From Fidelibacterota bacterium (lineage in GTDB: Bacteria > Fidelibacterota > Marinisomatia > Marinisomatales > TCS56), in NCBI GenBank assembly GCA_043822705.1, contig JBDRBK010000128.1:1-44485 (forward strand): a DNA stretch of 44,485 nucleotides, given 5' to 3'. This document shows, in pieces, positions 33,001-39,000 of this stretch. Made by a program: the position numbers. Position 1 is the first letter of the stretch. Each line of letters begins with the position of its first letter.

Positions 33001-36000
33001 TAGTCTTGCCGAACTTGGCTTTCAAGTCCTCCAGCAACTCCGGCGCTTCCAGCACCAGGTAGCCGTTGTTGATGGCGTTGCGCTTATAGGTCTGGCTGAA
33101 AGAGCCGGCCAGCACCAGTTGGATGCCGCGATATTTCAGCGCGGTTGCGGCCTGTTCGCGGGAGCTGCCGGTGCCGAAATTGTATCCGCCCACCAAGATG
33201 TCACCCTTCTGCGCCAGCTGGCCGAATTCAGCATCATAGTTTTCCATCACGACTGCGGCCATCTGCACCGGGGTAAAATCATCGATGTAGGTATATTTTC
33301 CAGGATATATACCATCAGTATTCAGATTATCCTGATGACAGAAGATGGCTGTACCGGATAGCTTGGCCGGGAAACCATCCAACAGACTGGTGCTGACGGC
33401 CGCGCGCTTGGACGCCGGAGCCACTTTAATATTGCTCTTCACCAATTGTCCGGCGAATGGTGCCGGTCCGGCGATTTTGCCGGCCAGGGCGCTGGCGGCC
33501 ACCACCGCCGGTGACGCCAGGAAGGCCTGCGCTTCCTTGGAACCCATCCGGCCCTTAAAATTGCGGTTGGTGGCTGAAATACCGACCTCGCCATCCTGCA
33601 GTAATCCTACGCCCAGCCCGATGCAGGGACCGCAACCCGGCGGTATCGTAATTGCTCCGGTCGCGATCAGCGTTTGCCAGTCACCGCGACGTTCACTCTC
33701 CTCCTGCACTTCTCTGGAAGCGGCGGCGACATAAAATTCCACCCCAGCGGCCACTTTTTTACCTTTCACAACGGCGGCGGCTTCGGCCAGGTCGTCCACA
33801 CGACTGTTGACGCAGGAAACCAGGTAGGCCTTGTGGATTTTCAGGTTGCGCTTTTCCATCTCCGCCACGGAGGTCATGGTCTTGACATTGTGCGGTCCGG
33901 AAACACTGGGGCTGACCGTCGAGAGGTCGATTGTCAGTTCCTTGCTGTAATAAGCATCGGGATCGGCGGCAGGCGGATTCGCTTCCAATGCGGCAATGCG
34001 GGCCTTGTTCATCCGGGGATGAACGCCATTCCCGTCGGCATCAGAGGGAACGCCTTCCAGTCCACGCTTTTCGATTGCAGCAGCACGGTCATATAACCAT
34101 TTAATCGTGACAGTGTCGATCGGAAATAGTCCCACCAGAGCGCCCCATTCAGTGGTCATATTGGCAATCGCCAGACGTTCGTCGATGGTCAACCCGGCGA
34201 TACCGTCTCCACCGAATTCCAGGGCGAAATTAAGGACTTCGTCATGATTGAACACACCGCAGAGCGTGATGATCAAATCCTTGCCGGTTACGCCGGCCGG
34301 TAATTTGCCGGTCAGATTGACTTTGGCTACCGGCGGCACCTGCCACCAGGTCCGGCCCGTGGCCCAGATCGCTGCGGCGTCGGTGCGCACGATCGGCGTG
34401 CCCAGGCAACCCAATCCGCCGTACATATTGGAATGACTGTCGGACGCGACCGCCAGCGTGCCGGGGAAGGCATAGCCCTCTTCCAGCATGATCTGGTGAC
34501 CGATCCCGCGACCGGCGGGATAGAAATCGACGCCCATCGCTTTGGCGAAAGCCTCGATGCCGGCGTATTTCTTCAGGTTGGCCTCACTTTTATCCTGAAC
34601 GTTGTGGTCCAGGGCGAACATTGGCTGGCGCGGATTGGCGATTTTGCTGGCGCCGATCGAGCGAAACTTGGACATAACTGCACCGGTATTGTCATGGGTC
34701 AGGATATGGGCCGGCTGAATGGATAGATAATCACCGGCCTGTACTTTAACCCCAGCTGCTAAATCGACGGCATACCTCTGGGCAAGTTTTTCTACAAGGT
34801 TTTGAGACATATTATCACCGATTTATGATGAGCCACGAAAAAGACAAGGAAATTGGAATTATACGTTTGTTCCTCGTTTAATTCGTTGCCTTCGTTGTTA
34901 ATTGATTATTTAAGCTTTGAATGGTTCGAATGATACAAAGTCGGCATGATGGACGATTATCGATTCCACCGTCCGGTAGCCCAGGTCACCTTCCTTGGAA
35001 TGGGTGCCGATGATATGCTGAACCTCCGCCGGCAGGTCGAACCGGGCGGCGATACCGACACCGCTGAATGGATGGCGCACGATTTTTCCGGCATTGCTGG
35101 TAATCAGCTTGCCGTCGACTATATCGTATTCCAGTAACTTGCCCACATCAATCAGGATTGCACCAGAAATCAGCAGATCCATATCGATTTTTATCTCCGC
35201 ACCGAAATTATCCTGCATGCGCTTGGCAATATCGACTGCCAGCTGGACACAGGTGCGCTTATGATTCATAAAGGACACTTTACAATCCTTGATCAGCAGC
35301 GAGAACGGAATTACTTCCAGATCTTCCGGCGTCAAGACACTGTTCTCAATCGCAAAGACCCAGGCCTGTAAAGTCTTTTCGCGCAATTCGTCATCCTTGA
35401 TCCAGTTGATCTCAGGCCAGATTTGTAAAACTTTTTCTCTCATGAAAACTCCGATTTGGTGATTTAAGATTTAATATTGAATATTTAAGATTTCTTGGAC
35501 TTCTGTGTTTTACGAATGGAATAGAAAATTGCAGTTAATTCATTTGCCTCATTCAATAAATCTGCTATTCTATTCTCATCAAGCAGGTTTTCAGTTTTTA
35601 TGAATTCGATCCAGAAAAGCGTCTCATCAACTTCTTCCAAAACTATACTGATCTTTGCTGTAAAGGCGGCTCCTGATTGAGCTATTACAGCAGCCCGGTA
35701 GTTGGCAGCAACTGAAGTGGAACAGCGAATTAATTGACTATGCAAATGTCTCCCAAGAATTGAATCTGACAGAGAAAGAGCCAACTTTACGCATCGGTGC
35801 GCAAAATTCGTAGTCCGTTTGATCAGCTCTTTACTGTCCATATCCACGAATATTAAATATTAAATCTTCATTATTAATTATTCTTTTACTCCGTAGATTG
35901 AGTCGATGACGGTGCCATCGACCCACTTGACGATACCGATGACCTGGTCGGTCAATTCCGGTTTCTGCGGCGGACCGCCGATCAGGTCGTCCACCTCGGC

Positions 36001-39000
36001 CTTGATTTCTTCGATTGTCCGGATCGGCAGACCACTGTTTTTGACCGCGTCCAGCAAATCGGTGCGTAGCGGATTAATCGCTATCCCCCGTTCGGTGACG
36101 ATCACATCGATCAGTTCACCGGGTCCGACCAGGGTCGTGACTTCATCCACAATCACCGGAATCCGGTCACGGAAAGCGGGAATCGGCAGAATCGTGCACT
36201 TACTGAACAAACAGTTCTGCCAGCCACCGATACCGTGGAGCATCTTGCCGTCGGAGTGGGTCACCACATTGGCATTGAAATTCACATCGACTTCCGTGGC
36301 GCCCAGCACCACCACATCCAGCATCGAGGCGAAATTACCCTTGCCGTGCCAGTTGTAGCTGGTGAACGGCGAGGTGTTGACGTGCCCGGAATTCTCGCGC
36401 ATCGAGCGCACACCCTCCAGATCGAAGGTCTGCCCGTCCAGGATGAAATCGGTCAGGCCCTGCTCCAGCATTTCCACCAGGTATTTGGTGGAGCCGCCCC
36501 GGATAAACCGCGCCTTGATCCCGGCTTCCTTCATCATTTCTTTGAGATAAATGGCAAAGGCCAGGGATGTCCCCCCGGCACCGGCCTGGAAACTGAAGCC
36601 ATCCTTTAGAATCCCGGCGGCCTGAACGAATTTGGCCGTCAGTTCGGCGATGTACAGGCGGTCCGGCGATTTGGTTAATTCGGTTGTACCGCTGACGATC
36701 TTGGCCGGTTCGCCGATTTTATCCAGCACCACCACGTAATCCACATTCTGGCCCTGAATCTGCCATGGCACACAGGGGAACGGCACCAGATTATCGGTGA
36801 CAATGATCACCTTATCGGCATGGATCGAATCCACCAGGCCAAAGCCCAGCAGACCACAGGCCGAGGGACCGCGATCGCCGGTAGCGTTTCCGAAAGCATC
36901 GGCGGTGGGTGCGGCGATTACGGCGATGTCAATGTGGACTTCCCCATCCTGCACCGCCTGCCAGCGGCCGCCATGGCTGCGCAGAACGGCCGTACCCTTC
37001 ATTTTGCCACGGGAGGCGTACTCACCCAGCGGACCATTCAGGGAGCCTTCGACCCAGGATACCACGCCGTTTTCCATGTGCTCGATCACCGGCTGATGGC
37101 AGGGGAAGGCCGCCGACGGGAACCAGCGCAGACCTTTTACCCCTTTTTGGGCGGCAATATCGAAAACCTGGTTCATCACCAGATCACCGTTGCGGAAATG
37201 ATGGTGGGACGAAATCGTCATTCCGTCTTTCAACCCGCATTTTTCCAGTGCTTCCCCGAGCGAGGCGACGGTTTTATTGCCGTCCATGGGGTAGTCGCTG
37301 CAGGTGCGGATCGGCAGCACCGGTTTCAAACCGGTCGGTTTGTACTTCCCGACGCCCTGGTAGGGCACCTGCTGGACACCATTGATTTCCGTCGGGACCA
37401 GTCGTCCGGCGGCGTTTTTTACCATTTCAGTTTTCATTTTTTAACCACTGATTTCACAGATTACACAGATTCATTTTATTATTCTTTCATATTCCAGTGA
37501 TTTGCCACCAAAGTTCATCAACAATCCAAGTTTCAGCTTAGTGACATTCAGATAATTCAATAGTTGGGCTCTCTCAATATCACCAATTTGTTTGATGGCT
37601 TTTAATTCGACAATCACCTTCCCATCAACAACTAAATCACCAATAGACTCTTTGATATTTACGCCTTTATAGTCTACAACAAATTTTTTCTGCTGTTCAA
37701 AGGGTATGTTTTGATTCTTTAATTCAACCACAAAAGCTTCTTCATACACAGATTCAAGAAAGCCAGAACCAAGTATTTTATGGACTTCCATCGCGGCTCC
37801 GATTATTTGATATGTCAACTCCTTGTATAAATAATCCTTCATACGATTCCATTTATCTGTGTAATCAGTGTAATCTGTGGTTACCCTAATTCTTCTTTCC
37901 AGTTATCAGATAACAATCCGGAGGCGATCGCCAGATTGATAGTTTGCTGCGCCCGTTTTACTACTGGCGGATCGATCATTTTATTGCCCAGCGCCACGAC
38001 CCCCAAACCTTGAGCCTGGGCCTTATCGAAAGCCAGCTCGATCTTTTGGGCTTTTTCAATTTCAGTCGCCGTGGGGGCGAACGCTTCGTGCAGTGGCTTG
38101 ATCTGACGCGGGTGGATGCAGCCTTTGCCGTCGAATCCCAGCGCTTTCGCTTCCAGCACCGACGCCCGCAACCCGGCTTCATTACCCACATCGCTGTAGA
38201 CCGTGTCGATCGCCTGCAGACCGGCAGCCCGCGCCGCGTTGACCAGCATCCCGCGGGCAAAGAATGATTCCTTGCCTTCATCGGTCCGCGGTACGCCCAG
38301 ATCGGCGGTGTAGTCTTCCAGTCCGATCGCCAGCGCGACAATGTTCGGAGAAGCTTCGGCAATTTCCAGTGCTTTCAGGATGCCCCGGCCGCTTTCCAGG
38401 ATCGGCATCAGATAAACCGGCTCGCTGCGGCCGCAGGCCCGGCTGATTTCGGCGATCTTATTATCGACAGCGATAATCTGTTCGGCCGACTCCACTTTGG
38501 GTATTAGAACAAGATGCACATTTTGGGGTACGATAAATTCCAGATCAATCAAACCCATTTCGCCCTGGTTGATCCGGACCATTCGCTCGGCGCCCATAAA
38601 ATCAAGGGACCGCAGGGCGTTACGCACCAGATAGCGGGTTTCCACTTTTTCCGGCGGACCGACCGAATCTTCCAGGTCCAGGATCAGACCGTCCGGTTGG
38701 TGGATACCGGCGTTCAGGGCCAATTTGGGTTGATTACCCGGCAAGTACAAGCGGCTGCGGCGAAAACGATCGCGCCGCGATGAATACCGGCAGAATTCCT
38801 TCATTTCCGGTAATGCTTCGGCTGTCAGCTCCGGGTGAGCCTGCTTGATGGCGGCTTCGATCCGGGCCATCATTACAAACGGTACCGCACCGAAATCGTC
38901 GATTTCCAGTAAGCCGGAATTAATACCCAGTTTGGTCAATACTTCCCGCGCCAGTTTATCAATGGCTTTATCAAAGAGAATACCGACTTTACTCTGAATT

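What a model noticed while it worked through the whole genome (the two positions that open the first line are those of the whole stretch)
35444..37880. Hairpin-bracketed single-gene cassettes (four-helix-bundle IVP and GxxExxY nuclease genes) that hop between operon junct [...]
The small AT-rich four-helix-bundle (23S_rRNA_IVP) and GxxExxY (PD-(D/E)XK) genes of this genome are each enclosed by an inverted repeat built of 7-nt or 9-nt units and sit between genes of unrelated operons (C128 twice, C98 rnf, C11, C84, C106, C123). In relatives the same cassettes occupy different junctions of the same operon, starting at the upstream stop codon, with full, decayed, hairpin-only and empty states: mRNA-level intervening elements.
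Evidence so far: Flank sequences. Among 1118 short genes ranked by upstream/downstream complementarity, these genes rank 1, 2, 4, 5, 9, 37 and 184; two 5'-truncated copies rank 1017 and 1046. Copies in loci of other phyla: 9 of 17 with z<=-2.7 against shuffles. In 11 relatives' copies of the C128 operon the GxxExxY cassette lies at the HD-homoaconitase junction in 3 (68-81% identical) and at citF-HD in 1, while citE-citF and citF-HD junctions are 14-37 bp and empty in some and carry 87-264-bp hairpin remnants in others. Gene-less hairpins also occur here (C46:427-491, C128:32762-32840; call 92). Searches 83, 84, 85, 88, 89 (listings) showed no description.
(Added by a program. Inside this text positions count along the whole contig: contig position 1 is position 1 of the stretch shown here. 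"Call 12" and the like, gene names such as g00115 and contig names such as C1 are that model's own, and its searches are not shown. The text may have been shortened before it was handed on; [...] marks where a part breaks off. The agent that wrote the report below was given it as the finding of a first reader that could run no searches.)

Follow-up and report, generated by a model that had tools for sequence, protein, structure and literature searches.

The report
Hairpin gene cassettes hopping within operons
Two tiny genes of long-unexplained families sit between operon genes inside mirror-image repeat arms; the nuclease gene's lineage has changed position within this one operon across related bacteria, which points to an undescribed kind of locally spreading repeat element.

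Summary
The layout is real. Both window genes (GxxExxY, IVP) and the other seven family members of this Marinimicrobia-like genome are bracketed by inverted arrays of short units; 7 of 9 outscore all 852 control ORFs. Corrections: units are 6-9 nt, and the two 'truncated' copies are frameshifted but armed. Hopping holds for GxxExxY: the 9 proteins closest to the window's among 77 from the order all sit beside genes of this operon, at five junctions; grouping by junction is rejected. The window's IVP lineage stays put (14 of 15 at citF-HD). New here: arms cluster locally (11 of 21 and 11 of 17 genome-wide arms in 6.5 kb), one duplication scar, a cassette-only exchange between genera, and other cargo (HNH, HEPN pair) inside the same arms. 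No target duplication; RNA excision not shown. Best reading: REPIN/RAYT-like elements moved by DNA recombination between arms, probably prompted by the nuclease (inferred). The scan noted this layout before on other DNA; I found no paper on it outside 23S rRNA.

The parts
37855..37883 (-). 5' arm of the GxxExxY cassette: three 9-nt units; its first three bases are the stop codon of citDE
37471..37842 (-). GxxExxY gene, 123 aa, RecB/Cas4-like PD-(D/E)XK nuclease fold, GC 0.35 against 0.54 for the contig
37442..37470 (-). 3' arm of the GxxExxY cassette, complementary to the 5' arm (26 of 29); ends 4 nt before the citF start codon
35849..35877 (-). 5' arm of the IVP cassette, AT-rich 7-nt units, directly after the citF stop codon
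35485..35841 (-). Four-helix-bundle (23S_rRNA_IVP / TIGR02436) gene, 118 aa from the ATG; homologue of PDB 2RLD
35461..35493 (-). 3' arm of the IVP cassette, overlapping the last codons of the gene
34811..34909 (-). Gene-less, decayed 9-nt-unit hairpin at the HD-homoaconitase junction (where close relatives carry the GxxExxY cassette); a different arm word, weak stem
32763..32839 (-). Gene-less hairpin of the 9-nt family at the homoaconitase-dehydrogenase junction
31429..31565 (-). Gene-less hairpin at the dehydrogenase-prpD junction
37881..39095 (-). Host gene upstream: fused citD-citE (acyl carrier + HpcH/HpaI lyase)
35878..37437 (-). Host gene between the two cassettes: citF
34910..35443 (-). 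Host gene downstream: HDIG-domain protein

Best explanation
The arms are a family of extragenic inverted repeats that act as recombination landing pads at operon junctions; the mobile unit is arm-gene-arm, and it moves as DNA. SHOWN: the GxxExxY lineage of this operon has changed junction; arms and cassettes multiply locally; one cassette was duplicated together with its neighbour gene, most of which was then deleted; one cassette was exchanged between genera without its flanks; the same arms enclose other cargo; there is no target-site duplication. INFERRED: the steps are unequal exchange or gene conversion between similar arms (neighbouring junctions, or incoming DNA at an already armed junction), followed by deletion of the loop, which leaves gene-less hairpins. 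INFERRED, weaker: the GxxExxY protein, an intact RecB/Cas4-like nuclease, recognises its 9-nt word and nicks or cuts the arm (perhaps as a cruciform) at low rate, prompting that recombination, much as RAYT serves REPINs. The element is tolerated because it is co-oriented, supplies or abuts the upstream stop codon and keeps the downstream start close. The IVP cassettes move the same way but have no catalytic protein; IVP most likely binds its own repeat arm as RNA, as its relative Avd binds DGR RNA.
For: Operon tethering: of 77 near-full-length GxxExxY proteins from 61 genomes, the 8 at >=58% identity to the window's and the next (54%) all neighbour genes of this operon, against 5 of the other 68; they form one group (FastTree 92) at five junctions. 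AU tests reject one clade per junction (HD-acn p 0.0095; citDE-citF p 0.042). Local arm clusters: 11 of 21 and 11 of 17 genome-wide arms within ~6.5 kb. Neighbouring duplicates 95%, 89%, 81% identical; a 23-nt exact piece of the intervening gene's start in front of the first copy (score 47, best shuffle 26). Cassette-only exchange: 18 of 112 synonymous codon differences against 689 of 1974 in five host genes, p 2e-5. Cargo HNH and nucleotidyltransferase-HEPN at the same citDE-citF junction. No target duplication (106 of 500 permutations as high). Catalytic residues E30, D69, E79, K81, Q93, Y97 conserved in 76 homologues; fold nearest Cas4 SSO0001 (Z 8.3, rmsd 4.2, 100 aligned); dN/dS about 0.06. 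Arm words follow protein similarity (Mantel rho 0.22, 0 of 2000 permutations) and are nearly identical in an Akkermansiaceae genome. Three or more arms in 25 of 40 genomes with GxxExxY, 1 of 21 without. Rare on vehicles: 3 viral loci, 8 of 72,556 plasmid records.
Against: No nuclease activity, binding or transposition was observed. The operon group is only modestly supported and was not recovered intact in a careful 17-row tree with long outgroups; the tested groups were named after earlier trees were seen. Only one duplication scar, in another operon; none among 1541 junction/gene-end comparisons in this operon. The cassette-only exchange rests on one pair, and AT-rich codon use could lower its divergence. 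Arm/GxxExxY co-occurrence is partly circular (the gene carries arms) and confounded: IVP presence follows the same genomes (36 of 40 against 4 of 21). Many empty cognate hairpins persist beside an intact gene, so any cutting must be rare. Many lineages stay at one junction (lexA-dinB 6 of 7, moaC-tauE 3 of 3, rnfA-rnfB 3 of 3). IVP cassettes duplicate locally too, with no nuclease of their own. 30 of 91 GxxExxY and 16 of 72 IVP loci fail the arm test.
Confidence: 0.5

Rival explanations
1. mRNA intervening sequences: the stems matter mainly as RNA. RNase III cuts them, as in ORF-bearing 23S rRNA IVSs, segmenting the operon message or tuning downstream translation, and the host keeps them for that.
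For: The Coxiella 23S IVS has the same build: 28-bp stem, heptamer repeats, an S23p ORF, cut by RNase III (PMC4990558, abstract and passages). The GxxExxY cassette folds a 29-bp closing stem (z -4.9). RNase III is encoded. Arms abut stop and start codons.
Against: It does not explain change of junction, duplication scars or cargo swaps. The IVP cassette fold is not better than shuffles. No processing was seen in the runs available, which were contigs and cannot show RNA ends. It may be true as a side effect without being the reason the elements spread.
Confidence: 0.18
2. Passive repeats: the arms spread by slippage and host recombination alone; both proteins are passengers kept by some other benefit or by addiction, and do not act on the arms.
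For: Duplication plus deletion needs no dedicated enzyme; a related strain differs by exactly one 9-nt unit in the arm; IVP cassettes behave alike without a nuclease; unrelated cargo sits in the same arms.
Against: The 9-nt word is conserved between phyla and tracks the protein tree at 40-60% amino-acid identity, where neutral DNA should be saturated; each family keeps its own period (9 against mostly 7).
Confidence: 0.2
3. A classical insertion sequence or homing endonuclease: GxxExxY excises and inserts the cassette, or cuts empty hairpins and is copied in by repair.
For: Terminal inverted repeats with internal repeated words; intact nuclease; cassette-only exchange between two genera; ends mostly flanked by (T)TAA.
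Against: No target duplication beyond the shared TAA; low copy number and mostly divergent copies; many empty cognate hairpins next to an intact gene; almost absent from viral contigs and plasmids.
Confidence: 0.07
4. RNA-templated mobility: the Avd-like IVP protein recruits a reverse transcriptase in trans and the cassette is copied from the operon transcript, which would explain co-orientation and locality.
For: IVP is homologous to Avd (PMC10053308, passage), which binds DGR RNA and supports reverse transcription (PMC6182149, passages).
Against: No RVT_1 match in this genome (93% complete); the duplication scar includes part of a neighbouring gene's start, as expected of DNA-level duplication.
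Confidence: 0.05

Closest known systems
ORF-bearing intervening sequences of 23S rRNA (Coxiella helix 45 with S23p; Leptospira) - PMC4990558
   Same: Four-helix-bundle ORF in the loop of a ~28-bp stem with heptamer repeats whose number varies; low GC; patchy distribution; ORF decay.
   Different: Here the cassettes lie between protein-coding genes; excision from RNA is not shown; a second family uses a nuclease gene and 9-nt units; they change junction and take other cargo.
REPIN-RAYT systems - bioRxiv 10.1101/2021.07.10.451892
   Same: Extragenic inverted doublets with a variable spacer; a low-copy protein gene flanked by the cognate repeat; protein group matched to repeat group; long residence at one site; near absence from plasmids.
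   Different: The protein is a PD-(D/E)XK nuclease or a non-catalytic helix bundle, not an HUH tyrosine transposase; arms are tandem short words, not short palindromes; copy number is tens, not hundreds; the gene itself moves and is enclosed by the doublet.
Intergenic heptamer repeats of Beggiatoaceae, Cyanobacteria and Bacteroidetes - PMC4679880
   Same: Short tandem heptamers next to stop and start codons, varying by whole units, with no known means of spread.
   Different: Described there as direct repeats with a possible regulatory role; the words 'intervening sequence', 'S23', 'four helix' and 'nuclease' do not occur in its main text.
MITE-like repeats (Correia, ERIC, RUP) and insertion sequences (recalled; only a search listing seen)
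   Same: Terminal inverted repeats, co-transcription, frequent position at stop codons.
   Different: Those make target duplications and use DDE transposases in trans (recalled); none is detectable here.
Avd of diversity-generating retroelements - PMC6182149, PMC10053308
   Same: Homologous pentameric four-helix bundle that binds a specific RNA stretch.
   Different: No reverse transcriptase, template or variable repeat found with these cassettes.

Membership tests
23S rRNA IVS with S23p/IVP ORF | PF05635 ORF enclosed by complementary termini with heptamer repeats | tested here: met
   compared with PMC4990558
23S rRNA IVS with S23p/IVP ORF | Located inside an rRNA gene | tested here: not met
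   Between citF and an HD gene; the others between protein genes; no Rfam match in the window
23S rRNA IVS with S23p/IVP ORF | Excised from the transcript by RNase III without religation | tested here: inconclusive
   RNase III present; only assembled contigs available, which cannot show RNA ends
REPIN-RAYT | HUH (Y1) tyrosine transposase as the cognate protein | tested here: not met
   Cargo proteins are PF13366 and PF05635; the genome's 5 Y1_Tnp matches lie elsewhere
REPIN-RAYT | Extragenic inverted doublets with variable spacer, cognate repeat flanking the protein gene | tested here: met
REPIN-RAYT | Protein nearly absent from plasmids and mostly resident at one site | tested here: inconclusive
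   8 of 72,556 plasmid records; several lineages fixed at one junction, but the window's lineage moves
Insertion sequence / MITE | Target-site duplication | tested here: not met
   38 arm pairs, mean 2.6 nt against 2.5 permuted, 106 of 500 permutations as high; a 2-4 nt TA/TTAA duplication cannot be told from the arm end
Insertion sequence / MITE | Recognised transposase domain | tested here: not met
PD-(D/E)XK nuclease (PDDEXK_3 / GxxExxY) | Fold and catalytic D...E-x-K residues | tested here: met
PD-(D/E)XK nuclease (PDDEXK_3 / GxxExxY) | Nuclease activity on the arms | not testable with these tools
   needs purified protein
Homing endonuclease element | Empty cognate sites are converted when the gene is present | tested here: inconclusive
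   One cassette-only exchange, but many empty cognate hairpins persist beside intact genes
Diversity-generating retroelement | Reverse transcriptase with template and variable repeats | tested here: not met
   No PF00078 match in the genome, 93% complete

The most novel reading that the evidence does not exclude
A new class of bacterial mobile element: GxxExxY nucleases recognise their own 9-nt tandem words and drive arm-to-arm recombination, so that cassettes creep along the operon they live in, seed gene-less hairpins at neighbouring junctions and turn those junctions into capture sites for defence-type genes (HNH, HEPN pairs, YhcG). It would be a REPIN/RAYT counterpart built on a PD-(D/E)XK enzyme, with the rRNA IVSs and scattered heptamer repeats as offshoots of the parallel IVP family.
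Probability: 0.3. Interest if true: 0.87.

Novelty: new variant of a known kind. Interest (0 to 1): 0.68.

Why it matters
Both protein families are widespread and without a known function (PDDEXK_3 is listed as 'Unknown' in PMC3424549; the origin and role of IVSs are called unclear in PMC4990558). The cassette layout gives each a concrete candidate substrate, its own arms, so the question can be settled with purified protein and synthetic DNA or RNA. If the nuclease mobilises the arms, this is a second, independently evolved REPIN-like system, a source for unexplained short intergenic repeats in many phyla, and a route by which accessory genes enter conserved operons without breaking them. The operon-tethered movement seen here is unusual for any prokaryotic element.

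Tried and rejected
Rfam: no match in the window or 4 related loci. Sequence search of solved structures with the GxxExxY profile: nothing significant. Dimer prediction gave no answer and is not used. Sequencing runs: four runs with 6-8% word share, all contigs. One RNA-library contig spans the IVP 3' arm with no mismatch (35421-35612), but DNA in the library cannot be excluded; contigs that join the two GxxExxY arms across a short loop occur in the RNA run and in a DNA run, so they are gene-less hairpins, not splicing. None of this is counted as evidence. Genome-wide search with the single window protein found only 3 loci, so cross-phylum sampling came from plasmid records, viral records and one other phylum. 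Target-site duplications: not found. Duplication scars inside this operon: not found; top hits were arms running into gene ends. Gene remnants in empty hairpins: 2 clear of 92; weaker hits were at shuffle level. Promoter/terminator scan: consensus matches in AT-rich DNA only, uninformative. Whether this genome's own 23S rRNA carries an IVS was not tested. Literature searches showed no description of repeat-armed GxxExxY genes or of IVP cassettes outside rRNA genes; the library lacks most subscription papers, and I read no supplements. PMC6006769 and PMC4833913 (passages) and 10.1101/2021.01.26.428298 (passages) were not relevant.
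Full report
Setting. The window is contig C128 of genome G000; the closest named relatives are Candidatus Marinimicrobia / Neomarinimicrobiota. On the minus strand runs an operon citDE - citF - HD-domain gene - homoaconitase (acn) - isocitrate/isopropylmalate-family dehydrogenase (idh) - prpD - acyl-CoA dehydrogenase-like gene (the last name is my reading of the sequence). 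A GxxExxY gene (37471-37842) sits between citDE and citF and a four-helix-bundle IVP gene (35485-35841) between citF and HD. Both are AT-rich (GC 0.35 and 0.40 against 0.54).

The observation. The GxxExxY gene is enclosed by 29-nt arms, 90% complementary, built of three 9-nt units; the first arm begins with the citDE stop codon and the second ends 4 nt before the citF start. The IVP gene has AT-rich heptamer arms (20-nt core, 95%). The genome has 7 IVP and 2 GxxExxY matches. Scored for flank complementarity, 7 of 9 exceed all 852 control ORFs; C123 and C98 are matched by 6 and 19 controls. All 9 point the same way as the upstream gene. Units are 6, 7, 8 or 9 nt. The two copies called truncated are full-length genes with an internal frameshift, and they have arms. 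Over all loci fetched by then, 56 of 72 IVP and 61 of 91 GxxExxY genes reach z>=3 against dinucleotide shuffles, with dominant periods 7 and 9. Outside the order 9 of 17 distinct loci pass; some failures carry arms in the same orientation on both sides or a whole hairpin on one side. As RNA the GxxExxY cassette closes a long stem (z -4.9); the IVP cassette does not beat shuffles (z -1.6).

Do they hop? I mapped the operon in 34 genome regions and 80 metagenome loci. Junction states are mixed: at citDE-citF, of 52 distinct junctions 4 hold GxxExxY, 12 arms only, 19 are 45 nt or shorter and 17 hold other or longer inserts; citF-HD (70): 13 IVP, 4 GxxExxY, 5, 25, 23; HD-acn (90): 12 IVP, 10 GxxExxY, 13, 35, 20 (kin are not independent). 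To ask whether one lineage moved, I took the family matches of all 61 genomes (105 matches, many partial) and recovered 77 distinct near-full-length proteins. The 8 at 58% identity or more to the window's protein, and the next at 54%, all lie beside genes of this operon, at five junctions: citDE-citF, citF-HD, HD-acn, an inserted gene-acn, acn-idh. Only 5 of the other 68 do. They group with FastTree support 92. In a careful tree of 17 rows the group was not recovered intact because long outgroups fell inside it, but trees forcing one clade per junction were rejected (p 0.0095 and 0.042; groups named after earlier trees). The window's copy at citDE-citF is closer to two copies at HD-acn (81%) than to other copies at that same junction (61-68%). 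The purine cluster shows the same: sister proteins at purE-purB and purB-purF (support 100), and at least four lineages at purE-purB (gene names are my reading of Pfam domains, and one of the four was placed by flank similarity). Many lineages do not move: lexA-dinB 6 of 7, moaC-tauE 3 of 3, rnfA-rnfB 3 of 3. The window's IVP lineage is of that kind: 14 of 15 at citF-HD. Other IVP lineages occupy other junctions, and L203, L196 and L200 each hold two copies of one lineage.

How do they move? Five lines point to DNA recombination at the arms. (1) Arms cluster locally: 11 of 21 genome-wide matches in G005 and 11 of 17 in G006 lie in about 6.5 kb of this operon; 4 of 10 in G004, 1 of 3 in G002, 2 of 2 in G000. 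(2) Neighbouring copies are each other's closest relatives in three loci (95%, 89%, 81%), though most other neighbouring pairs are only 27-60% alike. (3) In L257 the first of two copies is preceded by a 23-nt exact piece of the start of the gene lying between them: a tandem duplication followed by deletion. No such scar was found in this operon. (4) Between G005 and G006 the GxxExxY gene differs at 18 of 112 synonymous codons, the host genes at 689 of 1974 (p 2e-5), with no drop in the flanking codons; the same gene differs at 53 of 94 from the window's, so low GC does not cap it at that level. (5) The same arms enclose an HNH gene (L126) and follow or enclose a nucleotidyltransferase-HEPN pair (L041, L045) and a YhcG gene (L044, 3' arm only) at citDE-citF. 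Arms also run into the last codons of upstream genes and supply their stop. There is no target duplication. Clear gene remnants were found in 2 of 92 empty junctions, so hairpins probably also spread on their own.

What do the proteins do? The GxxExxY model (pLDDT 94) is a minimal PD-(D/E)XK fold nearest Cas4 SSO0001 (Foldseek E 8e-4; Z 8.3, rmsd 4.2, 100 aligned, only slightly above other nucleases). E30, D69, K81, Q93 and Y97 are invariant and E79 nearly so in 76 homologues; QxxxY as a RecB-family mark is recalled. Both genes are under purifying selection (dN/dS about 0.06-0.07). Arm words follow the protein: Mantel rho 0.22 (0 of 2000) for 52 GxxExxY representatives and 0.17 (12 of 2000) for 37 IVP representatives; the IVP signal vanishes below 50% identity, the GxxExxY signal fades more slowly. 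An Akkermansiaceae cassette has arms almost identical to the window's. Linkage alone could give part of this. Three or more arms occur in 25 of 40 genomes with the gene and 1 of 21 without, but this is partly circular, and IVP presence follows the same genomes. The gene is rare on viral contigs (3 loci, a pattern-limited search) and plasmids (8 of 72,556). IVP matches PDB 2RLD (E 7e-12) and is homologous to Avd (PMC10053308, passage), a positively charged pentamer that binds a specific RNA stretch (PMC6182149, passages). No reverse transcriptase was found. RNase III is present, but no data here show processing.

Comparison. The IVP cassette is built like the Coxiella 23S IVS (PMC4990558, abstract and passages) but fails its defining location. 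IVP ORFs also occur in CPR rRNA insertions (10.1101/2024.02.27.582315, passages). The population behaviour resembles REPIN-RAYT (10.1101/2021.07.10.451892, passages) but with another protein. Intergenic heptamer repeats were described without a link to these genes (PMC4679880, abstract, section 10, passages). PDDEXK_3 is 'Unknown' in PMC3424549 (passage). Ten searches showed no description of the cassettes outside rRNA; supplements were not read. Earlier notes of this scan report the same layout in other genomes, including operons filled with 9-nt hairpins; these are not independent support. A word search for local hopping and duplication found none.

Verdict. Real, and more than a curiosity. 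It works like a REPIN/RAYT-type repeat system with IVS-like anatomy and is a member of neither family. Movement within an operon is shown for the GxxExxY lineage and not for the window's IVP; the role of either protein is inferred. Novelty: new variant of a known kind, with about a 30% chance of a new class of element. Interest 0.68.

Noticed in passing
window 29798-29988: The prpD-acyl-CoA dehydrogenase junction holds a GTAG-type REP-like palindrome, also present in L032; a different repeat family from the arms.
   Followed up: no
window 28628-39095: Operon of fused citD-citE, citF, HD protein, fused homoaconitase, a dehydrogenase below all equivalog cut-offs, prpD and an acyl-CoA dehydrogenase-like gene, conserved across the order; the pathway is not obvious.
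   Followed up: no
G000 C94:16294-16554 and C162:803-1231: A GIY-YIG-like gene (my reading) and a Y1 transposase gene also rank high for complementary flanks: probably REP-flanked.
   Followed up: partly
L262:2107-2186: A short palindromic insert interrupts the start of one of two 89%-identical IVP copies.
   Followed up: no
L031-L033, L040, L062, L126, L137; window 37432-37441: Where the GxxExxY cassette of this lineage lies upstream, the next gene starts 6-8 nt after the arm, with no separate ribosome-binding site, and usually with Met-Lys, while the same gene starts otherwise in many relatives; the cassette may carry the downstream start region.
   Followed up: partly
L225, L215, L068, L038, L257: Some GxxExxY genes have 3'-type arms or a complete hairpin on both sides (direct-repeat layout), as expected if a gene-plus-arm unit recombined into a resident hairpin.
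   Followed up: no
L224, L244: A GxxExxY subgroup in the Verrucomicrobiota sample uses an 8-nt arm word instead of the 9-nt word.
   Followed up: no
listing, e.g. G026:C211, C95, C134; G040:C127, C132: Many arm matches lie near contig ends, so assemblies break at these hairpins and counts are lower bounds.
   Followed up: no
L054 vs L057: Mosaic divergence: IVP identical at synonymous sites, HD differing at 11% then 56% of synonymous codons, suggesting a recombination breakpoint inside HD next to the cassette.
   Followed up: no
window 39471-44485: Large plus-strand gene with repeated domains upstream of the operon; not examined.
   Followed up: no
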